From an uncultured Gammaproteobacteria bacterium (GTDB lineage Bacteria > Patescibacteriota > Patescibacteriia > SG8-24 > DYFX01): DNA of 64,000 nucleotides. The translations under genes were made by a program, and so were the position numbers. Where the stretch lies: positions 11,946-75,945 of the forward strand of contig CAZHHN010000001.1 in NCBI GenBank assembly GCA_964532415.1, written 5' to 3'. Below the pieces are notes generated by a model. That model ran no database searches. It saw only the letters and a program-made list of their open reading frames with translations, and was not told the DNA's origin. How positions within the stretch are numbered: position 1 is the stretch's first letter; each line of letters begins with the position of its first letter. Shown one piece after another: positions 3,801 through 36,955 of this stretch.

Positions 3801-3802
3801 GA

Positions 3803-3826: not shown

Positions 3827-3878
3827 TTCCTGCCGGCCTTGCCAGACCGTCCCGTTTCGGCTATCATGCCGATGTTCC

Positions 3879-3952
3879 GGGGGCTTGGTGAAGTGGTATC
3901 ACAAGGGTCTCCAAAACCCTTGTCGTAGGTTCGATCCCTACAGCCCCTGCCA
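3879..3952 (+). tRNA. tRNA-Trp (anticodon CCA)
   Basis: Anticodon stem-loop AGGGT-CTCCAAA-ACCCT, T-arm GTAGG-TTCGATC-CCTAC, acceptor ends AGCCCCT-G-CCA. Confidence 0.8.
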
Positions 3953-13278: not shown

Positions 13279-14422
13279 CGTTTTTTCCTTTCTGGTTTCC
13301 GATCGACCGGCGCCAATCGACCGGCGCCATCTTCCGTTCGCCGTTCGCGCCACGGAGATCATTGGCTGGATGTTGACCGCTGTTCTGGCGGCGATCGCGC
13401 TCTGGCTTCCCGAAGCGGGGCTGGCCGCGCATCGCGCCTGGCTTCTGGCGATCGCGGCGATCGGCGCCGGGGCTTGCCTGTGGTGGCGCTCTCGGACGGC
13501 GCGAACGTTCGGAGAGCGGGGAGATCAGGCACATGCGGCGCTCGCTGTGAGCGCGGGCATGGTCGCGTTGCTTACGGTTTTTCTCTATCTGCTGCCGGGC
13601 GCTCCGGGATTCCTCTACGACCTGTATGCGCTGCCCGTCATCGGCGCGGCCGTCGCATTGGACGCGCGCGCCGTGATCGGCGGAGGCGGCGCGGCCCTGT
13701 TCGCGGCGCTCTTCCTGCATATGGCGGAATGGACCTCCGGCCCGTTCTGGTCGGAAGAGATGTTCGTGCGGGGCAGCGCGATCATCTTGGTGACGATCGC
13801 GCTCGCGCTTGTGGCTGAGAGTTGGCGCGCGGCGCATGCCGGAACCGAACGCCTGGCCGAAGAAGTCAACGGCAATCTTGCCGAACTTCGGCTTCTCGCT
13901 TCGCTCGGCGGACAGGTCGAAGCGCTTTCCGACCTCCGTGCCCTGGCTGGGCGCATCGGACTGATCGCTGCCGAGGCCGCCGGCGCGGAACGGCATGCTT
14001 GTTTTTTCAGGGGCGAAGGCGCAGACGCTTTCCGGCCGATGGACAATGCCGGCGGTGCCGATCTGCTCGCGTTCGGACGCATGGACAGCGTGCGTGCCGT
14101 CATGGAGACCGGATTCCCGAGGATCTGGCCGAAGCTTGAAGAGCCGGTGCGGAACCTGCTGGCCGTCCCGCTGCAGGTGCGCGGAGCGCGGATCGGCGTC
14201 CTCTGCCTCGCGAGCCGTCGGAACGGGCGCCATTTCGATCGGGAAGCCGTACGCTCGGCTGAACGCGTGGCCGCGCTTGCGGGCGGCTTGTTCCGCGGCG
14301 CTTTGGACATCGAGCGGGCTCGCCAAGAGCGTCGGGCGGCGGAGCGGCTGGCGGCGCTCGTGGCCGGCCGCGAGGCGACGGGACTTCCGTACGAAGAATT
14401 CCCCGAATCGTCACGTCCATGA
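13268..14422 (+). CDS. Polytopic membrane protein with C-terminal GAF-like domain
   Basis: Several TM helices, then NLLAVPLQVRGARIGVLCLASRRNGRHFDREAVRSAERVAALAG, which resembles a GAF domain core. The stop overlaps the histidine-kinase start (ATGA). The exact start is uncertain (alternative Met at 13370). Confidence 0.55.
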   Translation: MRPDVFSFLVSDRPAPIDRRHLPFAVRATEIIGWMLTAVLAAIALWLPEAGLAAHRAWLLAIAAIGAGACLWWRSRTARTFGERGDQAHAALAVSAGMVALLTVFLYLLPGAPGFLYDLYALPVIGAAVALDARAVIGGGGAALFAALFLHMAEWTSGPFWSEEMFVRGSAIILVTIALALVAESWRAAHAGTERLAEEVNGNLAELRLLASLGGQVEALSDLRALAGRIGLIAAEAAGAERHACFFRGEGADAFRPMDNAGGADLLAFGRMDSVRAVMETGFPRIWPKLEEPVRNLLAVPLQVRGARIGVLCLASRRNGRHFDREAVRSAERVAALAGGLFRGALDIERARQERRAAERLAALVAGREATGLPYEEFPESSRP

Positions 14423-16914
14423 GGCGGCGCATACGGAGCACATGGCTCGAGATCGCCGCCGGTTTCGAGCTGCTGTTCGCGGCCAAACTGGCCTACGATG
14501 TCCGCCCCGTTTTCTCGTCGGGAATCTTCGGTTCTCCGGCGGATCTGTCTTCGCTTGCGCTCCTGCTCGCGGGTTGCGCCGTGTTTTTGCTGCACGCCGT
14601 CCGTCAGCTTCCGACCGCCCGGCGGGCATGTTTCGCCGTGGCCGCGCTTACCAGCCTGCCGTCCGCCTGGTGGTTGGTGCGCAACGGTTGGAACGATGTC
14701 GCCATCCTGCTGATTCTCCTGGGCGTCTGGTTCGCGGCGGCAGCGGCGTTTCGCGCCTGGGATCCGCCGCCGCAGAAGCCGGAGGAACGGTCGATGCAGG
14801 GAATCGCGCTGTATGTCGCCGCGACGCTCGTCGCGGTCGGCATTTCCCGTTTCGCGCACCTTGACGGCAGGGCCGTCGCAGCAGGGCTTGCCTGTGTTGC
14901 CGCCGCCGCGATTCTGGTCTATGCAGAGTACGTCGCCAACCGACGCCTGCGGTTGTATGCGGCGGCGGCTGGGGGCGCGGTCGTGCTGTCTTTGGCGCTG
15001 CGCGCGCTTTCAGACAGCGGCGCGGCCGCCGCGGGCGCGTTTCTTGCCCTGTTTGGCGCGCTGCTCCTTTCCGTGGCGATCCCGTATCTTCCGGAAGCCG
15101 CCGACGAGATGTCGGGCGCGCCGGAACGGCAGCGGGAAATGTGCCTGCACCAGCGCGCCTGCGAAGCGATCCTGTGGGCCGTCATGGCGCTGTCGATCCT
15201 GTACATGAACCGGAGGCAGTCGTTCGACGCACACATGTACTTTTTGGCGTTTTTCTCCGCCGCGCTCGTGACGCAATTCGGTTTTCGCGCGCGGCCCGTC
15301 CGGGCCCTGACCGAGCGCTCGTATCTTTTCGCGCTTTTCGGCATGATCGGCGTTTCGCTGCTGCTCATGGCCGCCACCGGCGGCGCGGGCGGACCGTTCG
15401 TCTATCTCGCCTACCTGTCCGTCTATGCCGGTACGGTGATCGTCGCTCCGTCCTGGTCGATCGTGACGGCCGGCGTCTACGTCGCCTATATCCTGGCGGA
15501 TGCCATCGGAGCCTGGTGGAGAGGCGGCGCGCCGCACGCCTGGGCCGATCTCGCTCCCGGCCTTTCGCAGGCGTCCTTCCTTGCCGCCTCCGTACTGCTC
15601 ATCGGCGGCTACACCGCCTGGACCGGACGGCGCCGCGCCAAACATGCCGAGGCGCTCATGGCGGCCAACCGGCGATTGGCCGAATCGCTCCGCTCGGCCG
15701 TGCGCGAACGCGAGCAATCCGAGCGGCGCTCGATCGAGCAGAAAAAGCTCAACGACGATCTGCTCGAGATGCGTTCCGCGCTCATGAACGTCCTGGAAGA
15801 CGTGCAGGAATCCAAGCGGCAGCTCGAACTTGACCGGCGCCGCGAATTCGCCAGCCTGAACGCGCTCGGTGAGGGCGTCATCGCCACCGCCAAAGACGGC
15901 GCGATCTTCCTGTGCAATCCGGCCGGCGCCGCGCTGCTCGGCCTCGACGCCAAGACCGTCGTCGGTCAGCCTCTCGAACGGACCGTTCGGCTGTTCGAGG
16001 AAAACGGCAGCGTCCTGCAGACCGGGGCATTCGAAACTGCCTTTGCCGGAAAAGCGACGCCGCTGTCCGCCCGGTTGGTGCTGCTGCGGGAGGATGGCAG
16101 GCGCGTTCCGGTCTCCGGCAGCGTCGCTCCGTATTTCGACGAGGAGAACCGTCTGGCCGGCGTCGTGCTGGCTTTCCGAGACGTGACGGTCGAACGGGAG
16201 ATCGACCGTCAGAAGTCGGATTTCATCTCGATCGCCTCACATCAGCTCCGCACGCCGCTTTCGGCGCTCCGTTGGTTCCTTGATCTGCTTCTGGCGGGCG
16301 ATGCCGGCGCGCTCAAGCCCCGGCAGAAGGAATATCTGGAAGACATGTCGGTTTCGACGGTGCGCATGATCAAACTGGTCGGCGACCTGCTCAACATCAC
16401 ACGCATCGAGTCCGGCCGCATCACGCCCAGGCCGCAGCGCGTCGACGTGGCGGCTTTCGCCGGCGATCTTGCGCGCGAGCACGCGCCGCTCTTCAAGAGC
16501 CGCGAAATCCATTTTGCCGTTCAGGTTGACGCGCGGGCGCGCACGATTTACGTCGATCCGGCGCTGGCGCATCAGGCCGTCGCCAATGTACTCTCGAACG
16601 CCGTCAAATATACGCCCAGCGGCGGAAGGGTCGATTTCAGCGTGGGCGTCGACGGGCGCATGGTCGTCTTCAGCGTCAGGGACACCGGCGTCGGCATTCC
16701 TCAGGCGCAGCAATACCGTGTCTACGACAAGTTCTTCCGGGGCGAAAACGTCGTGGCGCAGGAGACGGGAGGCAGCGGCCTTGGATTGTACGTGACGAAG
16801 CTGATCATCGAACTGTCCGGCGGTCAGATCTGGTTCGAATCGAAGGAAGGCCGCGGCACGACCTTTTCGATGGCCTTGCCCACCGCGGTTCCCGAAGGTA
16901 CAATGCCCGCATAA
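14419..16914 (+). CDS. Sensor histidine kinase (multi-TM sensor, PAS, HisKA, HATPase_c)
   Basis: About 10 TM helices. PAS-like block LNALGEGVIATAKDGAIFLCNPAGAALLG. H-box SIASHQLRTPLSAL. G-boxes DTGVGIP and GGSGLGLYVTKLIIELSGG. Confidence 0.9.
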   Translation: MRRRIRSTWLEIAAGFELLFAAKLAYDVRPVFSSGIFGSPADLSSLALLLAGCAVFLLHAVRQLPTARRACFAVAALTSLPSAWWLVRNGWNDVAILLILLGVWFAAAAAFRAWDPPPQKPEERSMQGIALYVAATLVAVGISRFAHLDGRAVAAGLACVAAAAILVYAEYVANRRLRLYAAAAGGAVVLSLALRALSDSGAAAAGAFLALFGALLLSVAIPYLPEAADEMSGAPERQREMCLHQRACEAILWAVMALSILYMNRRQSFDAHMYFLAFFSAALVTQFGFRARPVRALTERSYLFALFGMIGVSLLLMAATGGAGGPFVYLAYLSVYAGTVIVAPSWSIVTAGVYVAYILADAIGAWWRGGAPHAWADLAPGLSQASFLAASVLLIGGYTAWTGRRRAKHAEALMAANRRLAESLRSAVREREQSERRSIEQKKLNDDLLEMRSALMNVLEDVQESKRQLELDRRREFASLNALGEGVIATAKDGAIFLCNPAGAALLGLDAKTVVGQPLERTVRLFEENGSVLQTGAFETAFAGKATPLSARLVLLREDGRRVPVSGSVAPYFDEENRLAGVVLAFRDVTVEREIDRQKSDFISIASHQLRTPLSALRWFLDLLLAGDAGALKPRQKEYLEDMSVSTVRMIKLVGDLLNITRIESGRITPRPQRVDVAAFAGDLAREHAPLFKSREIHFAVQVDARARTIYVDPALAHQAVANVLSNAVKYTPSGGRVDFSVGVDGRMVVFSVRDTGVGIPQAQQYRVYDKFFRGENVVAQETGGSGLGLYVTKLIIELSGGQIWFESKEGRGTTFSMALPTAVPEGTMPA

Positions 16915-16930
16915 GTCCCAGTTTTCTCCC

Positions 16931-17308
16931 ATGGCCAAAACCATCCTGATCGTCGAGGACGAGCAGAGCATGCAGCGGGCGCTGAAAAGCAAGCTGGAAC
17001 ACGCCGGGTATCAGGTGCGGACGGCGAGCGACGGCGAAGAGGCTATGTCCGTGCTCAAAGATTCCTCTCTTCCGGATCTCGTCCTGCTCGACCTGATCAT
17101 GCCCAGGATGGACGGCATCACCGTGCTCCGCCAGATGAAAGCCGACGAGCGGCTGCGCGCGGTGCCGGTCGTGATCCTGACGAATCTGAGCGCGGGCGAC
17201 AAGGTCGCCGAAGCCATGCAGCTCGGCACCTTCGATTTCCTGGTGAAGGCCAATTACTCGCTCGACGACGTGCTGAAAAAGGTCGCCGATCGTCTGGGCC
17301 CGCCTTAG
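16931..17308 (+). CDS. Single-domain response regulator (CheY-like receiver)
   Basis: ILIVEDE...DLVLLDLIMPRMDG...VVILT with the receiver Asp and Lys positions present. No output domain. Confidence 0.9.
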   Translation: MAKTILIVEDEQSMQRALKSKLEHAGYQVRTASDGEEAMSVLKDSSLPDLVLLDLIMPRMDGITVLRQMKADERLRAVPVVILTNLSAGDKVAEAMQLGTFDFLVKANYSLDDVLKKVADRLGPP

Positions 17309-17321
17309 GATCGCGCAGGCT

Positions 17322-17705
17322 ATGGCAAAATCTTCCAAAAAAATTCTGGTCGTCGAAGACGAGACGTTTCTCGTCAAGATTTATGCCGTCAAGCTGAAGA
17401 AAGAAGGCTTCGACGTCAGCATTGCGAGCGACGGGGAAGCGGCCATCCGCATGGCGGCGGCGCTCAGGCCCGACCTGATCCTGCTCGACCTGATCCTGCC
17501 GAAACTGAACGGCTTCGAAGCGCTCGAGAAAATCCGCGCCAACCCCGACAACCGGAAGACGCCCGTGATCGTCCTCTCCAATCTCGGTCAGGAAGAGGAC
17601 GTCAAACGGGCTGAGGCGCTCGGAGCCGACGCCTATCTCGTCAAATCCAATTTTTCGATCCAGGACATCGTCGCCAAGATCCGGGAAACGCTCGGGGAAG
17701 CTTAA
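17322..17705 (+). CDS. Single-domain response regulator (CheY-like receiver), second copy
   Basis: ILVVEDE...DLILLDLILPKLNG...VIVLSNLG. Receiver only. Confidence 0.9.
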   Translation: MAKSSKKILVVEDETFLVKIYAVKLKKEGFDVSIASDGEAAIRMAAALRPDLILLDLILPKLNGFEALEKIRANPDNRKTPVIVLSNLGQEEDVKRAEALGADAYLVKSNFSIQDIVAKIRETLGEA

Positions 17706-17734: not shown

Positions 17735-19435
17735 GTGTCGATACCCAACGAAACACTCAAAAAGGCGCTGGCCGAGTTGGACGTGCTTCCGGCCGACCGG
17801 TTGGAAGCCGCTTTTCAGGGCGCGCAGGAACGCGGCGAGGATCTCGCCGAATATCTGGTCGAACGCAACGCGGTTTCCGACGAAAACATGGGGCGCGTCA
17901 TGGCGGACGTCTACGGGGTGCCGTTCGTGAATCTGCGCAACGAGACGGTCGGGGAGGACGTGCTCGGGCTCCTGCCGGTCGAAATGGTCAAGCGCTCGCG
18001 GGTGTTCCCGTTCCGGAAAGCCGACGGCGCCGTCTGGCTGGCGGTCAACGATCCGGGCGATCTCGAGGCGATCGCGGCCGTGCGGAAAAAAATCGCCGGT
18101 CCGGTCCGTACCTATTTCGCCACCCGCGACGATATCGGCCTGGCCGCCGCCCGCTATCGCCGCGACATCAAAGAAGTCTTCCAGGGGATCATCGCCGCCG
18201 CCGAAAAGCGCCTGAACGAGAAGCCAGACCTGTCGCCCGAAGACGCACTGCGGGAGCTGCCGATCGTCGAGATCGTCGATACCCTGCTGCTCTACGCCTT
18301 CCAGGCCGAAGCCTCCGACCTGCACATCGAGCCGCGCGAAAAAGAAGCCTACGTGCGTTTTCGGATCGACGGCATCATGCACGACATCGTGCGCTACCCG
18401 CGCTACATGCACGAGTTCATCGTCATGCGCCTGAAGATCATGGCGCGTCTGCGCACCGACGAGCATTTCGCCGCGCAGGACGGCAAGATCCGCGAGATCT
18501 TCGAAGGCGATCTGGTCGACCTGCGCGTCAGCATCGTGCCGGTCATCGAAGGCGAAAAGGTCGTGCTGCGTCTTCTGACCGAGCGCGGCCGGCACTTTTA
18601 TCTCGAATCGATCGGCCTCGGCGAAGAAGACGTCGCCAAAATCCGCGCCGCCGTCAAGAAGCCGTACGGCATGCTCCTGGCCGTCGGTCCGACCGGCTCG
18701 GGGAAAACAACGACGCTCTACGCCGTCCTGAAAGTGCTGAACACCAGCGAGGTCAACATCACCACCATCGAGGATCCGATCGAGTACGATATTCCCGGCG
18801 TCAGCCAGATCCAGGTCAACCCGCGGACGGGCATCACCTTCGCGGCCGGGCTCCGCGCGCTGCTCCGGCAGAATCCCGATATCATCATGGTCGGAGAGGT
18901 CCGCGATGAGGAAACCGCCGGCGTGGTCGTCAACTCGGCCATGACTGGCCACTTGGTGCTTTCGACGCTGCACACCAACGACGCCGCCACGACCCTGCCC
19001 CGCCTCCTCGACCTGAAGATCGAGCCGTTCCTGATCGCGTCGTCCGTCAACCTGATCGTCGCTCAGCGCCTGGTGCGCAGGATCTGCCCGCGCTGCGTGC
19101 GCAGTTCGGACGTGGCCGTCGCGGACCTGGAGCGCTACGTTCTGCCGGCCGGCGCCGTCGAACGGCTGCTCGGAAAAAAGAAGCGCGCGACCGTCTACGC
19201 CGGCGCCAAATGCGCGCTCTGCCGCCATACCGGCTACCTCGGGCGCGTCGGCATCTTCGAACTGCTGGAAGTCGGCGATGCCGTCCGCAAGCTGATCATG
19301 GCCCGCGCCAATGCTGACGAGATCGCCCAGGAAGCCGTCCGGCAGGGGATGGTGCCGATGCTGGAAGACGGCATCCGCAAAGTGCTGAACGGCCTCACGA
19401 CGCTCGATGAACTCCAGCGCGTCCTGCGCGATTGA
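17735..19435 (+). CDS. pilB: Type IV pilus assembly ATPase PilB / GspE family
   Basis: N-terminal GSPII_E_N-like region. Walker A GPTGSGKTTTLYA, Asp box, His box and the tetracysteine motif CPRC...CALC. Confidence 0.9.
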   Translation: MSIPNETLKKALAELDVLPADRLEAAFQGAQERGEDLAEYLVERNAVSDENMGRVMADVYGVPFVNLRNETVGEDVLGLLPVEMVKRSRVFPFRKADGAVWLAVNDPGDLEAIAAVRKKIAGPVRTYFATRDDIGLAAARYRRDIKEVFQGIIAAAEKRLNEKPDLSPEDALRELPIVEIVDTLLLYAFQAEASDLHIEPREKEAYVRFRIDGIMHDIVRYPRYMHEFIVMRLKIMARLRTDEHFAAQDGKIREIFEGDLVDLRVSIVPVIEGEKVVLRLLTERGRHFYLESIGLGEEDVAKIRAAVKKPYGMLLAVGPTGSGKTTTLYAVLKVLNTSEVNITTIEDPIEYDIPGVSQIQVNPRTGITFAAGLRALLRQNPDIIMVGEVRDEETAGVVVNSAMTGHLVLSTLHTNDAATTLPRLLDLKIEPFLIASSVNLIVAQRLVRRICPRCVRSSDVAVADLERYVLPAGAVERLLGKKKRATVYAGAKCALCRHTGYLGRVGIFELLEVGDAVRKLIMARANADEIAQEAVRQGMVPMLEDGIRKVLNGLTTLDELQRVLRD

Positions 19436-19440
19436 TTGTT

Positions 19441-20649
19441 ATGCGTTATCGCTATACCGCCACGACCGCCAAAGGCCGGATGGAATCGGGTTCGATCGAA
19501 GCGCCGTCAGCCGAGGCGGCGGCCGACCAGATTCGCGCTTCGGGGCTGTTGATCGTCTCGCTCCGCCGTGAAGGCGGAGGACTCGGCGGACTCTTTGCGC
19601 GCTTCGAATGGGTCACGCCCGAAACCAAAGTCGCCTTCGCCAAGCACCTGTCGCTCATGATCCGGGCCGGCTTGCCGGTCGACGAAGCCTTGCGCGCGCT
19701 GGTCGACCAGGCGCAGGGACGCTTCCGGCGCGACTTGACCGCGGTGCACAATGCGGTCGAATCCGGCCGTCCGCTTTGGGAAGGCTTCGCCGGGCGGCCC
19801 GGCACATTTTCCGAACTGACCGTGGCCGCCGTGCGCGCGGGCGAGGCGAGCGGCACACTCGGGGAGAACCTCGACGGCCTGGCTCTACAGATGACGAAAA
19901 ATTACGAACTCGTCCGAAAGATCCGCGGCGCCATGCTCTATCCGATCGTGGTGCTGACGGCGGCGCTGGGCGTCGGCATTGGCCTTTCGACGTTCGTATT
20001 GCCGAGAATCATCGAACTGTTCAAATCGATCACCGTCCAGCTGCCGCTCATGACGCGCATCCTGCTGGCTTTCTCGAATTTCATGGTGACCTATGGGACG
20101 CAGGCGCTGCTGTGTGCCCTGGCGGCGGTCGCAGGCCTCATCGTGCTCCTGCGCTCGAAGCCGGTCCGGCCGCTGGCCGACGCGGCGCTTCTCCGGTTTC
20201 CGGTGTTCGGGACGCTCGCCCGAAATTACAGCCTGGCGATGTGCGCCCGGACGATGGCCACGCTTTTGGCCTCCGGCATGCCGATCGGCGACGCGCTCCA
20301 GGTCGCGGCCGATGGCCTGCAGAACCGCTCCTTCCGGACCGCCCTGCTGCGCGTGAAAGCCGGAACCGAACGCGGCATGCCGGCCTCGACGCTGCTTGAA
20401 GACGAGCCGCGGCTTTTCCCCTCGGTGGCTTCCCGGATGATCGCCGTCGGCGAGCGCACCGGCAAGCTTGAAGAGACCTTCGGCTATCTGGCGGAGTTTT
20501 ACGAAGACGAGGTCGATGTCATGACCAAGAACCTCTCGACGCTGCTCGAGCCGCTTCTGCTGCTCGTCATCGGCCTGGTCGTCGCCTTCATCGCCGTTTC
20601 GATCATCTCGCCGATCTACAACTTTATCGGCAATATCCAGCGCCTCTGA
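19441..20649 (+). CDS. pilC: Type IV pilus platform protein PilC / GspF family
   Basis: Two repeated GspF domains with 3-4 TM helices. ATG at 19441 is just after the pilB stop (the ORF-track start at 19432 is TTG). Confidence 0.85.
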   Translation: MRYRYTATTAKGRMESGSIEAPSAEAAADQIRASGLLIVSLRREGGGLGGLFARFEWVTPETKVAFAKHLSLMIRAGLPVDEALRALVDQAQGRFRRDLTAVHNAVESGRPLWEGFAGRPGTFSELTVAAVRAGEASGTLGENLDGLALQMTKNYELVRKIRGAMLYPIVVLTAALGVGIGLSTFVLPRIIELFKSITVQLPLMTRILLAFSNFMVTYGTQALLCALAAVAGLIVLLRSKPVRPLADAALLRFPVFGTLARNYSLAMCARTMATLLASGMPIGDALQVAADGLQNRSFRTALLRVKAGTERGMPASTLLEDEPRLFPSVASRMIAVGERTGKLEETFGYLAEFYEDEVDVMTKNLSTLLEPLLLLVIGLVVAFIAVSIISPIYNFIGNIQRL

Positions 20650-20653
20650 ACGC

Positions 20654-21121
20654 ATGCGCCGCGGCTTCACCATCCTCGAACTGCTGCTGACCGTCGGCCT
20701 GCTGTCGCTCACCGCCGCGGCCGTTTTCCTTCCGCTCTCGGCGCTCCAGGGCCGGAGCGGGCTGCAGAGTGGAACGGCCGGACTGCTGAACGTCTTCCGC
20801 CGGGCGCAAGCGCAGGCGCTTGCGGGTTACTTCGCCGATTCGTGGGGCATCCATCTTTCGGACGCGGACGGTTGCGCGCTGCCGGCCTCGCAGTACCATC
20901 TGTTCCGGGGTAGCGCGTTCACCAGCGCGACCGACACGATCGAGACGTTCAGCCTGCCGAATGCCGTAGCGGTGACGGCGCTCGCGATCGGTGGCGGCTG
21001 CGACGTGAAGTTCAGCCGCTACGGAGGATCGACGACGTCGACCGGCACGGTCACGCTGACCGGACCGTACGGCGCGACCACGCTCACCATCAACGGCTAT
21101 GGTCGGATCACGCAACCATAA
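20654..21121 (+). CDS. Pseudopilin / minor pilin with class III (prepilin) signal
   Basis: MRRGFTILELLLTVGLLSL carries the prepilin cleavage/methylation motif G|FTxxE. Confidence 0.8.
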   Translation: MRRGFTILELLLTVGLLSLTAAAVFLPLSALQGRSGLQSGTAGLLNVFRRAQAQALAGYFADSWGIHLSDADGCALPASQYHLFRGSAFTSATDTIETFSLPNAVAVTALAIGGGCDVKFSRYGGSTTSTGTVTLTGPYGATTLTINGYGRITQP

Positions 21122-24100
21122 GCCGGCAGGCGGCCAATCGACGATCGAAGTGCTGATCGCCGTCGGCACTTTCGCGCTGCTCGCGGCCGGACTGCTTCAG
21201 CTGGTTGCCAGCCCCCTGACGCTCGCCGGAGATTCGGCCAACCGTTTCAAAGCGTCAACCTTCGCCGACCAGGGCGTCGAGGCGGCGCGCGCCGTGAAGG
21301 AATCCGGCTGGACCCACCTCTCGACCGGCACGCACGGGCTGGCACGCTCCGGCGGCACCTGGTCGTTCAGCGGCTTTTCGGACGTGCCCGATACCGGCTT
21401 CGTGCGGTCGGTCGTCGTGGCGGACGTGGCGCGCGACGTGGGCGGCGCGATCGTGACGGGCGGCGGCACCGTCGATCCGCGCACGAAGAGCGTCACCGTC
21501 ACCGTCAGCTGGACCTTCGGCGTGGTCGCTTTGCCGCGCAGCGTCACCCGCTCCGTCTATCTCACCGACTGGAACGTCTACGATTGGACGCAGACGACCG
21601 ACGCCGACTTCTCGGCCGGCAGCAGGAGCGGCCTGACGATTTCCGGCACCGGGAGCGCTGCTCAGGTCGAACTCTCGCCGGCCAATAAAAGCTGGACATC
21701 CGGCGGCGGAACGCTCGTGGTGCATACGACCGACGCCGACTGGAACGGCGGCTCCTACGGCACCAACACGCAGGAAACCGGGACCGGCAGCACCGCTTCG
21801 GTGACCGAGCTCGGCGCATCGGCCTGGAGCGGCGTCAGCCAGGCCAAAACCTGGAACGAAACGACCGACACGGATTTCTCCGACGGCACCTTTTCGCAGA
21901 CGGCGGTCGTGGATACCGGCGACCTGGCCGGCGTCGGGTTGAACACGCAAATCGACTGGGCACCGCAGACCAGCCCCACCACCAATGACATGTACACGCT
22001 CGGAGCCGTGAGCGCCAACGACGTCTGGGCGGTCGGCAGCGCCGGAACGATCGCACATTGGAACGGCTCCGCCTGGAGCGCCGTCAGCAGTCCGACATCC
22101 CAGGGGTTGCACGACGTCGACTGCCTGACCGCGGCCAACTGCTGGGCGGTGGCCGATGCCGGACAGATCATCCGCTGGAATGGCACGAGCTGGACGAATT
22201 TCGTCGACACGGGCGCCGAAGTCTACAACGGCGTGACGATGACGTCGACAACGGACGGCTGGGCAGTGGCCGGCGGCACGAGCGGCACGGCCCGCGGCCG
22301 CATTTTCCGTTGGAACGGCACGGCTTGGTCGCAATTCGTCGACCTCGGCAGCCAGAATCTCAGTTCGATCGACTGCACCGGCACGTCGGACTGCTGGGCT
22401 TCGGCCGATTCCGGGCAGATCTTCCATTGGAACGGCACGGCCTGGTCGCAATTCGTCGACACCGGATCGGAGACCTGGAATGACCTGAATATGGTTTCGC
22501 CGACCGATGGCTGGATCGTCGGCGAAGGCGGCGCCATGCGGCGTTTCAATGGCACCAGCTGGAACACCGTCTCAAGCGGAGTCACCGGTTCCCTGGGCGA
22601 TGTCGAATGCGTTTCTTCCACCTACTGCCTGGTCGTCAGCGACGGCACGCCCCGGGTCTGGAACGGCACGGGCTGGTCGGCGATGAGCTTCGTGTCGGGC
22701 GTGACGCTCTACGGCCTGGCGGTCATTTCGTCGGGGAGTTCCTTCGGCATCGGCGCCGGCGGTGCCTTCGTCAATTACGGTACGCATTATTTCCCGAACG
22801 GAACGTACCTCTCCGGCATTTTCGATGCGGGCTCCGCGCAAACCTGGGGCACCGCCAGTTGGGACGCGGTGCTGGTTTCGGCGACGGGAGTGACGATCGC
22901 CACCCGGAGCGCTTCGACGCCGGCCGGTATCGGCTCGGCGGCCTGGAGCGCGGAGATGGCCGTTTCCGGTTCGGCGATCACGAGCGCCGCCAATCGTTAT
23001 CTCCAATACCGCATCACCCTGGCGACCCCGAATCGGAGCGCGACGCCGCGCCTGAACGCGATCACGATCAGCTACGCGGCGCCGGCGGTCGCCGATTACG
23101 AAGATCTCTACATGGCGGCCGACAACGACGGCTGGAGCTTCGGCAGCGGCGGCGCGATCGCGCGCTGGGACGGGACGGGCTGGAGCAAATTTTCTTCGCC
23201 GACGGTGAATCTGCTCGAGGCGGCGGCCGGGACGGCCTCGACCGACGTCTGGGCGATGGGCGCATCCGGGACGATCGTGCACTGGAACGGGACGGCTTGG
23301 TCGGTGATCGTGAGCGGCACCGCGCAGGCGCTGCACGGCGCGGCTTGTCTGACCTCGGGCAATTGCCGGACCGTCGGCGCTTCGGGAACGATCCTGCGCT
23401 GGAATGGCACGGCCTGGTCGGCCGAGGCCGATCCTTCAACGCAGGGTCTTGAAGCCGTCGGCTATACGGCGGCCAACGACGTTTGGGCCGTCGGCGGTAC
23501 CGACATCGTCCGTTTCAATGGCGCTTCATGGTCGGTCCATACGACGGTGGCCGGCGCCGCCTTTCACGGTCTTTGGATGGTCTCGGCCACTGACGGCTGG
23601 ACCGTCGGAGGCGGCGGTGCGATCCGGCGGTGGAACGGCACGGCTTGGTCAACGGTGACCAGCCCGACGACGAATGCGCTTCGGGATGTCCACTGCGCGA
23701 GCGCGTCGGACTGCTGGGCGGTCGGCGACGCCGGGACGATCATCCATTGGAACGGCACGGCTTGGTCGACGGCGGCCAGTCCGACCGGGCAGGCGATCGA
23801 AGCGGTCTTCATGAGTGGCGGGACGCACGGCTGGGCGGTCGCTCACGCCACGACCTTCCTGGAATACCGTACGGTCTATCCGGGCGGGGCGGCCTGGACC
23901 AGCCCGATCATCGACGGCGGCGCTGCCGGCACGACCTGGAACAGCGTGGCCTGGGATCAATCGCTGCCGCTCGGCACCGGCATCACGATCGCCAGCCGCT
24001 CGGGGCCGAATCCAACCTGCTGTACCGGCTGGTCTTCGTACAGCGCGGAGTACGCGTCGCCGGGCGGCTCTCCGGTCACGAGCCCGGCCAACCGTTATTT

Positions 24101-25280
24101 CCAGTATCGGACCACATTTACGACCGCCAACACCGTCTCGACCGGCGTTCTGCAGGAAGTGCGGATCCTGCGCGGCGCCGCAACCGCTCAGCCGCTCTAC
24201 GGCATTCAGGGCACGGCGGCGAGCGACGTCTGGGCCGTCGGCGAAGCCGGCACGATCCTGCGGTATGACGGTGCATCGTGGTCGGCGACCAACAGTCCGG
24301 TCACGACCGTGCTGCACGGCCTGGATGCGCTGACGTCGGCAAACGCGATCGCCGTCGGATACGGAGGCGTGATCCTGAAGATGAATGGTTCCGCCTGGAG
24401 CGCGATGAGCAGTCCGACCAACGAAGAGCTGTATGCGGTCGATCTGTTGGACGCGACGCATGGTTGGGCGGTCGGCACGGGCGGAGCGATCGTCAGTTAT
24501 AACGGGACGACGTGGTCGACGATCGCCAGCGGCACGGGCAGTCCGCTCTACGGCGTCTCGATGGTTTCCGCTTCGAACGGGTTCGCCGTCGGCGGCGGCG
24601 GCACCATCCGCAGATGGAACGGCACGAGCTGGTCGACGTCGGCGAGTCCGACTATCGACAATCTGAACGACGTATTCTGCCTGAATGCGTCGCTCTGCTG
24701 GGCGGTGGGGGACAACGGGCGCATCCTCAGTTGGAACGGCACGGTCTGGTCAGTGACGACGAGTCCGGTCGCGTCGCGGCTCAATGCCGTCGAAGCGCGC
24801 TCCGGCGGCGAAGTCTGGGCGGTCGGCGACTTCGGCACGATCCTGAAGTACGATGGCGTCTCCTGGGCCAGCTACGTTTCGCCGACGACGCGCGATCTGT
24901 ATTCCGTGGCCGTGTCGGCTCCGACCGACGGCTGGATCAGCGGGAATGCGGGGGAGTTGATCAAAGATCCGATCGCCTACGTCGGAACGGGCACGCTCTT
25001 CTCTTCGGTGCTCGACACCGACAGCGCCACTTCCACGTTTCAGACGGCCTTTTGGAATGCGATCACTCCGGCCAACACGGCGCTGCGCGTCTCGGCCCGG
25101 AACGGCAATACGTCTTCGCCCGACGGCAGCTGGTCGGGCTGGGGGCCGTATTTTTCCTCCGCCACCGGTTCGCCGATCGCCCTGCCGTCGGCGCGCTACC
25201 TTCAGTATCAGCTGACGCTTTCGACCAGCGACACGTCGATGACGCCATCCGTGCAGGACCTCACCATGACCTATGAATGA
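21099..25280 (+). CDS. Giant (1393 aa) pilin-like protein: prepilin-type N-terminus followed by three modules of WNGTxWS beta-propeller-like repeats
   Basis: N-terminus GGQSTIEVLIAVGTFALLAAGLL is a prepilin-like signal with a hydrophobic helix. There are >20 copies of a ~40-aa unit [GTI.(H/R)WNGT.WS...SPT...L..V.C.....CWAVGD.G]. Each of the three blocks ends with a conserved NRYLQYR(I/T)T..T segment. Confidence 0.7.
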   Translation: MVGSRNHKPAGGQSTIEVLIAVGTFALLAAGLLQLVASPLTLAGDSANRFKASTFADQGVEAARAVKESGWTHLSTGTHGLARSGGTWSFSGFSDVPDTGFVRSVVVADVARDVGGAIVTGGGTVDPRTKSVTVTVSWTFGVVALPRSVTRSVYLTDWNVYDWTQTTDADFSAGSRSGLTISGTGSAAQVELSPANKSWTSGGGTLVVHTTDADWNGGSYGTNTQETGTGSTASVTELGASAWSGVSQAKTWNETTDTDFSDGTFSQTAVVDTGDLAGVGLNTQIDWAPQTSPTTNDMYTLGAVSANDVWAVGSAGTIAHWNGSAWSAVSSPTSQGLHDVDCLTAANCWAVADAGQIIRWNGTSWTNFVDTGAEVYNGVTMTSTTDGWAVAGGTSGTARGRIFRWNGTAWSQFVDLGSQNLSSIDCTGTSDCWASADSGQIFHWNGTAWSQFVDTGSETWNDLNMVSPTDGWIVGEGGAMRRFNGTSWNTVSSGVTGSLGDVECVSSTYCLVVSDGTPRVWNGTGWSAMSFVSGVTLYGLAVISSGSSFGIGAGGAFVNYGTHYFPNGTYLSGIFDAGSAQTWGTASWDAVLVSATGVTIATRSASTPAGIGSAAWSAEMAVSGSAITSAANRYLQYRITLATPNRSATPRLNAITISYAAPAVADYEDLYMAADNDGWSFGSGGAIARWDGTGWSKFSSPTVNLLEAAAGTASTDVWAMGASGTIVHWNGTAWSVIVSGTAQALHGAACLTSGNCRTVGASGTILRWNGTAWSAEADPSTQGLEAVGYTAANDVWAVGGTDIVRFNGASWSVHTTVAGAAFHGLWMVSATDGWTVGGGGAIRRWNGTAWSTVTSPTTNALRDVHCASASDCWAVGDAGTIIHWNGTAWSTAASPTGQAIEAVFMSGGTHGWAVAHATTFLEYRTVYPGGAAWTSPIIDGGAAGTTWNSVAWDQSLPLGTGITIASRSGPNPTCCTGWSSYSAEYASPGGSPVTSPANRYFQYRTTFTTANTVSTGVLQEVRILRGAATAQPLYGIQGTAASDVWAVGEAGTILRYDGASWSATNSPVTTVLHGLDALTSANAIAVGYGGVILKMNGSAWSAMSSPTNEELYAVDLLDATHGWAVGTGGAIVSYNGTTWSTIASGTGSPLYGVSMVSASNGFAVGGGGTIRRWNGTSWSTSASPTIDNLNDVFCLNASLCWAVGDNGRILSWNGTVWSVTTSPVASRLNAVEARSGGEVWAVGDFGTILKYDGVSWASYVSPTTRDLYSVAVSAPTDGWISGNAGELIKDPIAYVGTGTLFSSVLDTDSATSTFQTAFWNAITPANTALRVSARNGNTSSPDGSWSGWGPYFSSATGSPIALPSARYLQYQLTLSTSDTSMTPSVQDLTMTYE

Positions 25281-25794
25281 TCCGCACCGAACGCGACCCG
25301 GTTTCACGCTCGTCGACTTCATCCTGTATTTCGGGCTGATCGGTCTCTTTCTGACGGGCGTCATCGCCTTCGCGGTCGACTACACCAAGAGCTACAATAA
25401 GGCGCTCATCATTTCCCGCGTCGGGCAGGAGAGCCGTTTCGGGCTTCAGCGCATTCTGCGGACGGTTCGGCAGGCGGCCAAAATCAACGCCGCCTCGGTC
25501 TTTGACGATGATATGGGCACGCTCGCGCTCGACACGGTTGCAACCTCGACCACGCCGACCGTTTTCGACGTGTCCGGAGGCGCGCTGCGGATCAGGGAAG
25601 GCTCCGCCACCGCGACGCCGCTTACCTCCGGCGAGGTGGTCGTGCAGAAATTGCGCTTCAGCAAAGACGCGCCGATCGGCAACACGACCGCCGTCACGGT
25701 CGAGCTGACGGTGTCCTATGTGGGTCCTTTTGCCGACAAGCTGCTCTCTTACAGCCTTTCCGCCAGCGGCACGGCCGTGGTGCGCCGGGATTGA
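25273..25794 (+). CDS. Pseudopilin / minor pilin
   Basis: RPGFTLVDFILYFGLIGLFLTGVIAF is a prepilin-type N-terminus. ATGA overlap with the preceding gene. Confidence 0.75.
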   Translation: MNDPHRTRPGFTLVDFILYFGLIGLFLTGVIAFAVDYTKSYNKALIISRVGQESRFGLQRILRTVRQAAKINAASVFDDDMGTLALDTVATSTTPTVFDVSGGALRIREGSATATPLTSGEVVVQKLRFSKDAPIGNTTAVTVELTVSYVGPFADKLLSYSLSASGTAVVRRD

Positions 25795-25795: not shown

Positions 25796-26200
25796 ATGCG
25801 CCATCCCCCCAAGGGTTTCATCGCGATGGTCACGGTCCTGGTGCTGATGGCGGTGCTCCTGGCCGCCGGATTGGTCGGGGCGGCGATCGGACGCGACGAG
25901 CTGCTGCTCTCCGGTATCGTGGAAGACGGCAACCAGGCGTTTTCCGTCGCCGATGGCTGCCTCGAAGACGCCGTCAATCGCTTCAAACAAAACGGCGGCT
26001 ACGCCGGCGGCAGTTATGCGCTCTCCGGCGGAAGCTGCGTGGTGACGGTCGTCAATCCCGGCGGCAACACCCGGCTGGTGTCGGCCACGGCGACCTACGC
26101 CAACAACAGCCGCGCCATCGATGCCAACGTCACGCTGAAATTCAACGCGGCGGGCAACGCCAAAACCGTCATCGTCAATTCGTGGCTGGAATCCAATTGA
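25796..26200 (+). CDS. Small minor pilin (PilX-like N-terminus)
   Basis: KGFIAMVTVLVLMAVLLAAGLVGA is a pilin-like hydrophobic N-terminus. TGATATG junction. Confidence 0.6.
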   Translation: MRHPPKGFIAMVTVLVLMAVLLAAGLVGAAIGRDELLLSGIVEDGNQAFSVADGCLEDAVNRFKQNGGYAGGSYALSGGSCVVTVVNPGGNTRLVSATATYANNSRAIDANVTLKFNAAGNAKTVIVNSWLESN

Positions 26201-36237: not shown

Positions 36238-36579
36238 ATGGAAATCAGTCGCTCAACGAAGAAGCTGTCATTGTGGACCGTGCTTCTCGGTGTATTGCCA
36301 TTTGTGATTTATGCCGTTGAACGTGCCCTTGGGAAACTGCCGTCTGCAACTGATTGGTACAAGGGCGGTACCAATCATGGTCCTTGGCGATGGGAGCTCG
36401 AAGGTTTCACGATACTTTATCCAGTTATGATTCTGGCGGTGATAACTGCTATCAAGTCGATTGCCGAAGGGCAGGAAAGAAAAAAGTGGCAACCAGTTCT
36501 GATCGGTGGGGGGCTGATCGTGCTTCAAGCCGTCATCCTGTATGCCCAGTTAGTGGTACTTAATTGGACGGTGAATTGA
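36238..36579 (+). CDS. Small 3-TM membrane protein, putative immunity protein for the RHS C-terminal toxin
   Basis: Starts 1 nt after the RHS stop (TAGTATG). Three hydrophobic helices. Low GC like the toxin tip. Confidence 0.5.
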   Translation: MEISRSTKKLSLWTVLLGVLPFVIYAVERALGKLPSATDWYKGGTNHGPWRWELEGFTILYPVMILAVITAIKSIAEGQERKKWQPVLIGGGLIVLQAVILYAQLVVLNWTVN

Positions 36580-36598
36580 ATCACCAACGAGCCTACCT

Positions 36599-36853
36599 AT
36601 GAACACGGCTTCAAATGAAGAACTGGTGAAGACTGTGGGTGCGGTCGTTATTGGTACGCCTAGCGGCCTTAAGGCGCAGGAGGCGCAAGCGGAATTAAAT
36701 AGGAGGTTGATTGAGAAAATGGAGGCGCTCGTGACCAGTCTCGACAAGAATAATGAGACTACAGAACGGTTCAATCGCCGAACGCTTCAATTGACTTGGG
36801 CGATGGCGGTACTTGCTGTCGTGCAAATTGTGATTCCGTTCCTGCGCAATTGA
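36599..36853 (+). CDS. Small hypothetical protein with C-terminal TM helix
   Basis: 84-aa ORF in the low-GC cassette. Hydrophobic tail TWAMAVLAVVQIVIPFL. Confidence 0.35.
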   Translation: MNTASNEELVKTVGAVVIGTPSGLKAQEAQAELNRRLIEKMEALVTSLDKNNETTERFNRRTLQLTWAMAVLAVVQIVIPFLRN

Positions 36854-36955
36854 TGCGCGTGGATCCGCGACTATCGCGTGGTTCTTCTTCCATGCTCCGA
36901 CGTAGGGGTTTAGGAAAGGCATCGTAGGCTGATTGGTTAAAGCAAAGAAGAGAGT

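What the first reader, a model, noticed from the sequence alone, without database searches (positions are those of the whole stretch)
21099..25280. 1393-aa pilin-like giant: prepilin-type N-terminus followed by three tandem WNGTxWS beta-propeller-like modules
The protein begins with a leader plus hydrophobic helix (..AGGQSTIEVLIAVGTFALLAAGLL) like the pseudopilins flanking it. The rest is more than 20 copies of a ~40-aa repeat (GTI(I/L)(H/R)WNGTAWS...SPT...L..V.C.S...CWAVGD.G). These form three blocks, each closed by a conserved N-R-Y-(L/F)-Q-Y-R-x-T-(L/F) linker and a Ser/Thr-rich segment. Repeats of this kind resemble the blades of Ycf48/BNR-type propellers. A pilus-incorporated subunit carrying three propellers would be a very large tip adhesin. 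Its position between pilC and pilM, with ATGA-type overlaps on both sides, argues that it is a core part of the pilus operon rather than an accessory gene.
Basis: partly seen in the sequence, partly recalled or inferred. Interest (0 to 1): 0.8.

Follow-up and report, generated by a model that had tools for sequence, protein, structure and literature searches.

The report
Giant three-propeller type IV minor pilin
This gene encodes a very large pilus subunit from an ultrasmall (CPR/Patescibacteria) bacterium: a normal small pilin 'handle' carries three seven-bladed propeller domains, most likely shown at the pilus tip to grip a host or surface, which is a new, extreme version of the already known 'modular pilin' design.

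Summary
ORF 21099-25280 (+) encodes 1393 aa with a conserved class III (prepilin) signal: G-1, E+5 and a predicted 55-residue alpha-1 helix. A small GspI/PilV-like pilin head follows, then three blocks. Each block is a seven-bladed beta-propeller (six full 39-aa WNGxxW repeats plus a split seventh blade) followed by a roughly 100-aa beta-sandwich ending in RY(L/F)QY. That makes 18 full repeats and 21 blades.

The gene order PilB-PilC-small pilin-GIANT-two small pilin-like ORFs-PilM fusion-major pilins is kept in all eight related loci examined. Relatives carry one to five propeller blocks. The same head also occurs alone or with other cargo, in 2,658 cluster representatives.

The organism is a Patescibacterium. 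The window holds no secretin, PilT or PilD.

Best reading: a modular minor pilin of the priming/tip complex that displays a roughly 130-kDa propeller array as an adhesin. Adhesion, tip location and ligand are inferred, not shown.

Precedents are the S. sanguinis modular pilins PilB and PilC and the Saccharibacteria propeller pilin PilX2. I rate it a new variant of a known kind, of moderate interest.

The parts
21099..25280 (+). Whole CDS of the giant modular minor pilin (1393 aa plus stop)
   Evidence: 68%-identical full-length orthologue in L006; the identical 1393-aa protein P0387 is in NCBI, unnamed
21099..21134 (+). Class III (prepilin) leader peptide, residues 1-12, ending in G-1
   Evidence: Sequence; G-1 at least 90% conserved
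21135..21305 (+). Alpha-1 helix of the pilin module (residues 13-69), with E+5 (E17) and the hydrophobic alpha-1N
   Evidence: AF2 helices 15-44 and 46-69; E17 at least 90% conserved
21306..21572 (+). Globular beta-sheet of the small pilin head (residues 70-158), GspI/PilV/ComGE-like
   Evidence: AF2 strands 77-156, block pLDDT about 78-94. Sub-threshold NCBIfam hits across the family: ComGE 18/22, GspI 14/22, XpsI 10/22, PilV 9/22. 2,658 relatives of the head
21573..21956 (+). Spacer or stalk (residues 159-286) made of three ~40-aa 'TTDxDFxxGT...' hairpin units; the first two are predicted with low confidence
   Evidence: Sequence; pLDDT below 50 over 159-246 and above 80 from 250
21957..22778 (+). 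Propeller 1 (residues 287-560), seven blades
22779..23084 (+). Beta-sandwich 1 (residues 561-662), ending in NRYLQYRITL
   Evidence: no Pfam or PDB sequence match
23085..23873 (+). Propeller 2 (residues 663-925), seven blades
   Evidence: PSII_BNR 22.9 bits, below cut-off
23874..24182 (+). Beta-sandwich 2 (residues 926-1028), with NRYFQYRTTF
24183..24974 (+). Propeller 3 (residues 1029-1292), seven blades; the block best conserved with the orthologue
   Evidence: PSII_BNR 40.0 bits, E 3.8e-10
24975..25277 (+). C-terminal beta-sandwich 3 (residues 1293-1393), with ARYLQYQLTL
   Evidence: the same domain ends most family members whatever their cargo
20654..21121 (+). Upstream minor pilin (155 aa, MRRG|FTILE), GspH-like N-terminus; overlaps the giant's start by 23 nt
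25273..25794 (+). Downstream pilin-like protein (173 aa, RPG|FTLVD); overlaps the giant's stop by 8 nt
   Evidence: weak pseudopilin hits in orthologues
25796..26200 (+). Fourth small pilin-like protein (134 aa from the internal ATG, KG|FIAMV, no E+5, as in GspK/PilX-type subunits)
   Evidence: 136-143-aa counterpart in every syntenic locus; no family hit
17735..19435 (+). PilB/GspE assembly ATPase
   Evidence: T2SSE E 2.3e-119
19432..20649 (+). PilC/GspF platform protein
   Evidence: T2SSF E 4e-55
26228..28312 (+). PilM fused to a ~340-aa C-terminal extension
   Evidence: PilM_2 E 4.6e-37; TIGR01175 155.9 bits
28376..28942 (+). Putative major pilin 1 (188 aa, KA|FTLIELL)
   Evidence: N_methyl and GspG-like hits
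28962..29492 (+). Putative major pilin 2 (176 aa, KG|FTLIELL)
14419..17705 (+). Histidine kinase (14419-16914) plus two single-domain response regulators (16931-17308, 17322-17705) heading the operon
   Evidence: Not scanned against Pfam in the window. Assignment rests on the translations and on the Pfam-annotated counterparts in the same arrangement in L001, L002, L003 and the same ORF sizes in L006

Best explanation
The protein is a modular type IV minor pilin of a Patescibacteria (CPR) type IV pilus.

Shown by sequence and structure prediction:
- a class III signal peptide and a ~55-residue alpha-1 helix;
- a small GspI/PilV-like pilin head of about 145 mature residues;
- a flexible stalk;
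- three units, each a seven-bladed beta-propeller plus a previously unclassified ~100-aa beta-sandwich.

Inferred mechanism. The protein is inserted in the membrane by its alpha-1N segment and cleaved after G12 by a prepilin peptidase encoded elsewhere in the genome. It joins the three small neighbouring pilins (GspH-like, then a 173-aa and a 134-aa pilin-like protein; gene order as in H-I-J-K and FimU-PilV-W-X) in a priming complex on PilC. PilB-driven polymerisation of the two major pilins then lifts this complex out, so the roughly 130-kDa propeller array ends up at the pilus tip. The CPR envelope has no outer-membrane secretin, and none is encoded in the operon, so a cargo wider than the filament can be carried.

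At the tip the propellers probably act as the adhesin or host-recognition module of this presumably episymbiotic cell. A surface glycan is a plausible but untested ligand. The number and sequence of propeller blocks would set reach, avidity or specificity.
For: Pilin identity:
- G-1, E+5 and the hydrophobic helix are present and at least 90% conserved.
- AF2 predicts helix 15-69 followed by a beta-sheet at 77-156.
- Family heads hit ComGE (18/22), GspI (14/22), XpsI (10/22), PilV (9/22) and TIGR02532 (12/22).

Operon membership: the same order PilB-PilC-~155 aa-giant-~170 aa-~140 aa-PilM-pilins is found in L001, L002, L003, L005, L006, L007 (partial) and L009, with a variant in L004. The start overlaps the upstream pilin gene here, and also in L002 and L006 by their ORF coordinates.

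Cargo is a real fold:
- pLDDT 88 for blocks 2-3.
- Foldseek E about 1e-16 to tandem-propeller proteins, including the glycan-sensing BT4663 and PorZ.

Modularity: the head alone has 2,658 relatives ranging from 134 to more than 2,000 aa. They include head-only proteins (164-179 aa) and heads with what read, by eye only, as LamG-like, LVIVD-like or FG-GAP-like cargo. Relatives carry 1-5 propeller blocks.

Extracellular character: 49% Gly+Ala+Ser+Thr against 25% in PilB, and six C-x5-C pairs.

Each block is kept separately: orthologous blocks are 61-75% identical, paralogous blocks 33-39%.

Precedents:
- Modular pilins are tip-compatible adhesins (PMC8179133).
- The lectin-module pilin PilC of S. 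sanguinis sits in a glycan-binding complex of minor pilins (title and abstract of PMC9934059; listed, not read further).
- The Saccharibacteria minor pilin PilX2 carries a seven-bladed propeller, and deleting it halves host binding while pili are still made (PMC11623550).

The organism is a CPR bacterium (DnaK hits). No secretin, PilT or PilD was found among the larger predicted window ORFs scanned with Pfam or by the PilD motif scan.
Against: - No experiment or co-structure places the protein in a pilus, at the tip or elsewhere.
- The giant itself does not reach the curated cut-off of any pilin HMM (best GspI, E 0.074). The pilin call rests on motifs, family-level hits, predicted structure and synteny.
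- The +1 residue is Gln rather than the usual Phe or Met.
- No prepilin peptidase is visible in the 64-kb window.
- The ligand is unknown. The Tectonin and CBM_5_12 hits are sub-threshold or repeat artefacts.
- Inter-domain geometry is uncertain (pTM 0.50-0.58), and the stalk is poorly predicted.
- The head's class (GspI/PilV) could not be checked by fold, because the fold searches were dominated by the propellers.
Confidence: 0.62

Rival explanations
1. Cell-surface or envelope-spanning component of the machine rather than a pilus subunit. The class III N-terminus only anchors the protein in the membrane. The propeller-sandwich array stands in the cell wall or S-layer zone, for example as a conduit or alignment structure replacing the PilN/O/P/Q proteins missing from these operons, or as a PilY1-like primer that stays at the base.
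For: The gene is invariably present between pilC and pilM in this operon type. Apart from the PilM fusion, no PilN/O/P/Q proteins are recognisable. Tandem propeller-plus-sandwich architectures occur in envelope proteins such as PorZ and the BT4663 sensor.
Against: The same head occurs without cargo (164-179 aa) or with unrelated cargo in other lineages. Block number varies from 1 to 5. That variation suits an exchangeable effector better than a fixed structural part. The conserved E+5 is a feature of subunits that polymerise (general T4P knowledge).
Confidence: 0.2
2. Pilus-borne enzyme. The propellers are catalytic (glycosidase, lyase or sialidase-like) and degrade host surface polymers on contact, rather than simply binding them.
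Against: No canonical Asp-box (SxDxGxTW) is evident by eye in the sequence or in the aligned repeat units; no explicit motif scan was run. No catalytic motif or hydrolase-family hit was found. The most conserved repeat positions read as structural W and G residues. Fold hits are generic seven-bladed propellers at about 10% identity.
Confidence: 0.08
3. Not a pilin at all: an ordinary secreted or membrane repeat protein whose N-terminus resembles a prepilin signal by chance and whose location is coincidental.
For: The protein does not itself pass any pilin HMM cut-off. The same propeller repeat occurs in many non-pilin proteins with Sec signals, Ig-like, SLH or lipase domains in Myxococcota, Chloroflexia, Actinomycetes and Bathyarchaeia.
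Against: G-1, S+2 and E+5 are at least 90% conserved in the head family. There are family-level hits to GspI/PilV/ComGE/N_methyl. A 55-residue alpha-1 plus beta-sheet is predicted. The position among pilin genes is invariant in genomes from 40 to 68% GC.
Confidence: 0.03

Closest known systems
Modular type IV pilins, e.g. Streptococcus sanguinis PilB (pilin + vWA) and PilC (pilin + lectin) (Raynaud et al. 2021, PMC8179133; PMC9934059)
   Same: A class III signal and small pilin module are fused through a linker to bulky modules that are not specific to pilus biology. The host is monoderm-type with no secretin. The subunit is predicted to fit only at the tip. The gene sits among minor pilins.
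   Different: The cargo here is about 1,230 aa: three propellers and three sandwiches, against a single vWA or lectin module. Neither the modules nor the head is homologous to those of S. sanguinis by any test run here. Function is untested.
Saccharibacteria (TM7x) minor pilin PilX2, a pilin with a seven-bladed RCC1-type propeller needed for efficient host binding (PMC11623550)
   Same: A CPR type IV pilus minor pilin carrying a C-terminal seven-bladed beta-propeller. It is the largest pilin of its locus and a candidate tip adhesin of an episymbiont.
   Different: PilX2 has one RCC1-type propeller and was reported to lack a predicted PilD signal. The window protein has a canonical G-1/E+5 signal, three WNGxxW (Ycf48-like) propellers and interleaved sandwiches. 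No RCC1 hit was found.
PilY1/PilC tip adhesins of diderm T4aP (Pseudomonas, Neisseria, Myxococcus)
   Same: A beta-propeller-bearing protein encoded with the four core minor pilins and presented with them at the pilus tip to mediate adhesion.
   Different: PilY1 is not a pilin. From general knowledge, it has a Sec signal and docks on the minor-pilin complex through its own propeller (PF05567/IPR008707). Here the propellers are covalently fused to a pilin head, and no PilY1/PilC-domain hit was returned.
T2SS/T4aP core minor pilins GspH-I-J-K and FimU-PilV-PilW-PilX
   Same: Four consecutive pilin-like genes sit between the platform and alignment genes. The first is GspH-like, the second (the giant) has a GspI/PilV/ComGE-like head, and the last lacks E+5 like GspK.
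   Different: All hits are below curated cut-offs. The identities of the third and fourth genes are not established. GspI/PilV are about 120-190 aa with no cargo.
Ycf48/HCF136 (PF14870 PSII_BNR) and other seven-bladed propellers (WD40, YncE, BT4663, PorZ)
   Same: The seven-bladed propeller fold. Propeller 3 passes the Pfam PF14870 gathering score. BT4663 and PorZ also combine two propellers with a C-terminal sandwich.
   Different: About 10% identity to solved structures. There is no photosystem in CPR bacteria. Propellers 1 and 2 do not pass the PF14870 cut-off. The relation is at fold or superfamily level only.

Membership tests
Type IV pilin (class III signal peptide; IPR012902/TIGR02532/PF07963) | Short polar leader ending in Gly(-1), Glu at +5, and about 20 hydrophobic residues forming alpha-1N | tested here: met
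   MVGSRNHKPAGG|QSTIE-VLIAVGTFALLAAGLL. G-1, S+2 and E+5 are at least 90% conserved in 22 family heads.
Type IV pilin (class III signal peptide; IPR012902/TIGR02532/PF07963) | Match to the curated N-terminal methylation-site HMM above cut-off | tested here: inconclusive
   The giant itself has no PF07963 or TIGR02532 hit. 12 of 22 family heads match TIGR02532 at E up to 1, best 9.2e-5.
Type IV pilin (class III signal peptide; IPR012902/TIGR02532/PF07963) | Lollipop fold: a ~50-residue alpha-1 packed on an antiparallel beta-sheet | tested here: met
   AF2 predicts helix 15-69, then strands 77-84, 87-91, 95-98, 101-112, 124-138 and 147-156, with pLDDT about 80-94. This is a prediction only.
Type IV pilin (class III signal peptide; IPR012902/TIGR02532/PF07963) | Cleavage and N-methylation by prepilin peptidase, and incorporation into a filament | not testable with these tools
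   No PilD motif in the window; this needs biochemistry.
Modular pilin sensu Raynaud et al. 2021 | An N-terminal pilin module plus at least one extra module that also exists outside pilus proteins | tested here: met
   The same propeller repeat occurs in non-pilin proteins (P0045, P0050, P0052, P0053, P0058-60). The head occurs alone or with other cargo. Their Dataset S1 lists the architecture IPR012902-IPR028203 once; the mapping of IPR028203 to PSII_BNR is from memory.
GspI / PilV / ComGE-type core minor pilin | Sequence match to TIGR01707, NF047828, TIGR02523 or NF041013 above cut-off | tested here: inconclusive
   Many family members hit these models, but below cut-off. Best E-values: 2.7e-5 (GspI), 8.7e-7 (XpsI), 2.7e-6 (PilV), 7e-6 (ComGE). 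The giant scores E 0.074 on GspI.
GspI / PilV / ComGE-type core minor pilin | Second position in a four-gene minor-pilin cassette next to a GspH/FimU-like gene | tested here: met
   Order is 155 aa (GspH-like N-terminus), giant, 173 aa, 134 aa (no E+5). It is conserved in related loci.
PilY1/PilC tip adhesin (PF05567 / IPR008707) | C-terminal PilY1-type propeller domain and a non-pilin (Sec) N-terminus | tested here: not met
   No PF05567 hit on the full protein or on the single propellers. The N-terminus is prepilin-type.
Ycf48/HCF136 (PF14870 PSII_BNR) | Score above the Pfam gathering threshold (27 bits) | tested here: inconclusive
   Propeller 3 alone scores 40.0 bits (E 3.8e-10), propeller 2 scores 22.9 bits, propeller 1 has no hit, and the full-length scan has no hit.
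Ycf48/HCF136 (PF14870 PSII_BNR) | Single-propeller lumenal or periplasmic protein of oxygenic phototrophs acting in PSII assembly | tested here: not met
   The organism is a Patescibacterium, and the protein is a pilin fusion in a pilus operon.
WD40 repeat proteins | WD40 sequence repeats (GH...WD) detectable by Pfam | tested here: not met
Saccharibacteria PilX2-like propeller pilin | RCC1-type seven-bladed propeller on a CPR minor pilin | tested here: not met
   The fold is seven-bladed but there is no RCC1 hit. Homology to PilX2 itself was not tested because no sequence was available.

The most novel reading that the evidence does not exclude
These proteins form a large, undescribed class of 'programmable' CPR pilus tip adhesins. 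One conserved PilV/GspI-like carrier head and one conserved C-terminal sandwich frame an exchangeable cargo: 1-5 propeller-sandwich cassettes, or LamG-like, LVIVD-like or FG-GAP-like arrays (the latter three assigned by eye only). That cargo would determine which host cell an ultrasmall episymbiont can recognise. At 1,393 to 2,368 aa they may be the largest type IV pilins reported. Block number and sequence would then predict the host range of uncultured Patescibacteria.
Probability: 0.3. Interest if true: 0.7.

Novelty: new variant of a known kind. Interest (0 to 1): 0.5.

Why it matters
How CPR/Patescibacteria find and hold their hosts is largely unknown, and type IV pili are their best-conserved surface organelle. 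This protein family, of which this gene is a three-propeller member, offers a concrete candidate for the host-recognition element in non-Saccharibacteria CPR lineages such as the Uhrbacteria/Magasanikbacteria-like groups.

The head is constant and easy to find by HMM (2,658 cluster representatives). The cargo is highly variable. Cataloguing the cargo could therefore give a sequence-based handle on adhesion specificity in organisms that cannot be grown.

The family also stretches the modular-pilin concept to cargo about eight times the size of the pilin module. It defines a ~100-aa beta-sandwich domain with no current family assignment.

Tried and rejected
I split it into residues 1-680 and 660-1393.
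- The search for related loci with the 14-sequence alignment failed for lack of a conserved 7-10-column stretch. I used the single protein instead.
- The afdb50 fold library was unavailable.
- Fold searches could not classify the pilin head or the sandwich, because propeller hits fill the lists.
- Profiles of the head (A4) and sandwich (A5) against PDB sequences gave nothing meaningful: LigA Ig-like at E 1e-3, NCAM2 at E 0.17. The A5 members scanned one by one against Pfam also gave nothing meaningful.
- The CBM_5_12 (27 bits) and DUF2510 hits are short W-rich repeat matches and were discounted. Tectonin at 20 bits is below its cut-off.
- A motif scan for prepilin peptidase (G[GAM]GD[VIAFLM]K) found none in the window. 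Pfam scans of the larger predicted window ORFs found no PilT, PilD or secretin.
- Rejected: compositional (non-structural) repeats.
- Rejected: membership of the PilY1 family.
- Rejected: an ordinary Sec signal.
- Four literature searches of the open-access library found no description of this family. One table line in Raynaud et al. may correspond to it.
Full report
**Observation**

It runs 21099-25280 on the + strand and encodes 1393 codons plus a stop. Its GC3 of 0.83 matches its neighbours.

The N-terminus reads MVGSRNHKPAGG|QSTIEVLIAVGTFALLAAGLL. It has a 12-residue polar leader ending in Gly, Glu at +5, and a 21-residue hydrophobic stretch.

A regex for the blade motif, [WFYM][ND]GxxW, finds exactly 18 sites. 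They fall in three groups of six with a 39-aa period. Shuffled sequences give 0.09 sites on average and never more than two.

I built an HMM from the 18 units. Each full unit matches it at i-E between 4.9e-17 and 6.8e-22, though these values are circular because the HMM came from the same units. The HMM also detects half-units at residues 287-308, 911-923 and 1029-1043.

The RY[LF]QY motif occurs three times, at residues 633, 999 and 1366.

The overlaps with the flanking genes are real but differ from the description. The upstream overlap is 23 nt and the downstream one is 8 nt (ATGAATGA); they are not ATGA on both sides.

**Genomic context**

On the + strand the genes run as follows:

| Coordinates | Product |
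|---|---|
| 14419-16914 | histidine kinase |
| 16931-17705 | two response regulators |
| 17735-19435 | PilB (T2SSE, E 2e-119) |
| 19432-20649 | PilC (T2SSF, E 4e-55) |
| 20654-21121 | 155-aa pilin, G\|FTILE, GspH-like N-terminus |
| 21099-25280 | the giant |
| 25273-25794 | 173-aa pilin-like protein, G\|FTLVD |
| 25796-26200 | 134-aa pilin-like protein, G\|FIAMV, no Glu+5 |
| 26228-28312 | PilM fusion |
| 28376-28942, 28962-29492 | two major-type pilins |

The kinase and regulators were not scanned against Pfam in the window. They are assigned from the translations and from their annotated counterparts in the related loci.

No secretin, PilT or PilD appears among the larger predicted window ORFs that I scanned. 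The rest of the window is housekeeping: TIM, PBP2, a Mur ligase, DnaK, DnaJ, CysRS, YidC and MgsA.

The best named relatives of the window's DnaK are all Patescibacteria, at 75-78% identity: Uhrbacteria, Magasanikbacteria, Kerfeldbacteria, Falkowbacteria and Parcubacteria. The one exception is a single hit labelled Candidatus Binatia (76%). The identical DnaK and the identical 1393-aa protein are recorded, unnamed, on an 82.9-kb NCBI contig.

**Relatives**

A search of 5.8 billion proteins gave 415 hits at E up to 1e-5. The top ~57 are mostly pilin-headed proteins from Patescibacteria metagenomes. The best in that search are 43-46% identical. A 68%-identical orthologue turned up in a GTDB MAG (L006).

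Nearly all full-length members keep G-1, E+5 and the hydrophobic helix.

Their lengths cluster near 1,000, 1,400 and 1,850-2,370 aa. These correspond to two, three and four-to-five propeller-sandwich blocks. One-propeller forms also exist: P0129 at 577 aa and the 715-aa ORF in L009.

Gene order around the homologue is the same in every locus examined: L001, L002, L003, L005, L006, L007 (partial) and L009. L004 shows a variant. These genomes range from 40% to 68% GC. The gene is thus a fixed member of this operon type.

**Structure**

Two AlphaFold2 jobs used co-linear alignments. Residues 1-680 gave mean pLDDT 79.8 and residues 660-1393 gave 88.1. The models show:

- a 55-residue alpha-1 helix (15-69) followed by a six-strand sheet (77-156). 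This is the classical pilin lollipop.
- a poorly predicted stalk (159-246) made of ~40-aa 'TTDxDF' hairpin units.
- three blocks, each with seven groups of three to four antiparallel strands, followed by a five-strand sandwich. The RYxQY motif is one strand of that sandwich.

At the sequence level, propeller 3 scanned alone passes the Pfam gathering score for PF14870 (Ycf48/PSII_BNR) at 40 bits and E 3.8e-10. Propeller 2 falls just short at 22.9 bits, and propeller 1 does not hit. The sandwich domain matches no Pfam family or PDB sequence.

**The head as a carrier**

Family heads give sub-threshold but consistent hits to core minor-pilin models:

| Model | Members hitting (of 22) |
|---|---|
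| ComGE | 18 |
| GspI | 14 |
| TIGR02532 (prepilin N-terminal domain) | 12 |
| XpsI | 10 |
| PilV | 9 |

The upstream gene is GspH-like and the last small gene lacks E+5. The four-gene cassette therefore mirrors GspH-I-J-K and FimU-PilV-PilW-PilX, with the giant in the GspI/PilV slot. This assignment is suggestive, not proven.

An exhaustive phmmer search with the 165-aa head against 1.84 billion representatives found 2,658 proteins at E up to 1e-3 and 820 at E up to 1e-10. Their total lengths run from 134 to more than 2,000 aa. I inspected a sample of these:

- head-only proteins of 164-179 aa;
- heads with stretches that read, by eye only, as LVIVD-like repeats, LamG domains or FG-GAP-like repeat arrays (no family scan was run on them);
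- heads with one propeller.

Most end in the same RYxQYR sandwich. This is what the modular-pilin concept predicts: a constant carrier with exchangeable effectors.

**Further properties**

Orthologous blocks (window against L006) are 61%, 70% and 75% identical. Blocks within the protein are only 33-39% identical. The triplication is therefore old, and each block is maintained on its own.

The protein is 49% Gly+Ala+Ser+Thr, against 25% for PilB. The Saccharibacteria T4P study (PMC11623550) used this compositional trait to flag exposed pilins. The giant also has six C-x5-C pairs, which would suit extracellular disulfides.

**Mechanism**

The steps shown by prediction are the pilin architecture, the propeller and sandwich folds, the operon membership and the modularity.

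The inferred steps run as follows. PilD processes the protein. It then assembles with the three small pilins into a priming complex on PilC. Major-pilin polymerisation lifts it out, so the roughly 130-kDa cargo sits at the tip. There it binds a host or surface ligand.

The absence of an outer-membrane secretin in CPR bacteria removes the size limit on tip cargo. This fits the S. sanguinis PilB study, which shows modular pilins in both monoderms and diderms and judges PilB compatible only with a tip location (PMC8179133).

The closest functional precedent is PilX2 of Nanosynbacter lyticus TM7x. It is a CPR minor pilin with one seven-bladed RCC1 propeller, and deleting it halves host binding while pili are still made (PMC11623550).

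**Rivals**

- An envelope-resident machinery role, about 0.2. The variability and dispensability of the cargo across lineages weaken it.
- A pilus-borne enzyme, about 0.08. No catalytic signature supports it.
- A non-pilin protein, about 0.03. Motif conservation, predicted structure and synteny contradict it.

**Comparison and novelty**

The protein meets the definition of a modular type IV pilin. It is not a PilY1-family member, having no PF05567 hit and a prepilin N-terminus. It is not a Ycf48 orthologue, and it is not demonstrably homologous to PilX2.

The InterPro survey in Raynaud et al. lists the architecture IPR012902-IPR028203 once in its Dataset S1. If IPR028203 is the Ycf48-like domain, as I recall, a relative was catalogued there but never discussed.

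Four full-text searches found no description of the family.

I therefore class it as a new variant of a known kind. It is an unusually large, multi-propeller modular minor pilin with an unclassified sandwich domain, belonging to a big CPR family of carrier-plus-cargo pilins.

Interest is moderate, at 0.5. A pilus specialist would find the size and the cargo diversity notable but not paradigm-changing. The family does offer a practical route to studying host recognition in uncultured CPR bacteria.

Noticed in passing
window 30195-36236 (+), and 36205-38149: A 2013-aa protein lies directly downstream of the pilus operon. It has SpvB, TcdB_midN, FG-GAP and RHS-repeat regions and ends in an SLT lytic-transglycosylase domain (residues 1869-1973), so it looks like a peptidoglycan-degrading RHS toxin. 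A low-GC stretch (0.50) follows, with a 124-aa membrane ORF (a possible immunity protein) and a Schlafen/AlbA_2 ORF.
   Followed up: partly
window 26228-28312 (+): PilM carries a ~340-residue C-terminal extension (694 aa in total) with a weak Baseplate_J-like hit. Similar long PilM fusions occur in L001, L002 and L006. No separate PilN or PilO is recognisable.
   Followed up: partly
window 21573-21956 (giant residues 159-286): The stalk consists of three ~40-aa units of the form 'W.xTTDxDFxxGTxxxTxVxGxGxxAxVxL'. The same unit precedes the extra propellers in four- and five-block homologues (P0001-P0003, P0006). The first two units are predicted with low confidence.
   Followed up: partly
window 21957-24974 (propellers): 14 of the 18 blade motifs are N-G-[ST] sequons, and the protein has 21 N-x-S/T sites in all. 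Six blades carry a C-x5-C pair (342/348, 426/432, 504/510, 750/756, 866/872, 1194/1200). These could be glycosylation and disulfide sites, or simply structural residues.
   Followed up: no
proteins P0135, P0140, P0138, P0175, P0142, P0165, P0137, P0144, P0150, P0161, P0143: The same pilin head is fused in other genomes to no cargo or to quite different cargo. By eye only, that cargo reads as LVIVD-like repeats, LamG domains or FG-GAP-like arrays. Most of these proteins end in the same RYxQYR beta-sandwich, which has no Pfam or PDB match.
   Followed up: partly
L008 (same MAG contig as L006), and P0066: The MAG that carries the 68% orthologue encodes a second, non-pilin protein (870 aa, with CarboxypepD_reg domains) whose propeller repeats are 55% identical to those of the giant. 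The window itself holds no second WNGxxW protein.
   Followed up: partly
window 57950-60502 (+): An 850-aa protein with a Peptidase_S74 domain, the intramolecular chaperone of endosialidase and tail-fibre proteins. This is unusual outside phage and may mark a fibre-like surface protein.
   Followed up: no
L009 and L007 (record titles): Contigs labelled 'Gammaproteobacteria' (L009, GC 0.40) and 'Vicinamibacterales' (L007, GC 0.68) carry the typical CPR operon arrangement around a giant homologue. This suggests mis-binning or mislabelling of these MAG contigs.
   Followed up: partly
window 2642-3949 (+): A cluster of four tRNA genes lies at 2642-2951 with a fifth at 3879-3949. No rRNA gene is present in the window.
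   Followed up: no
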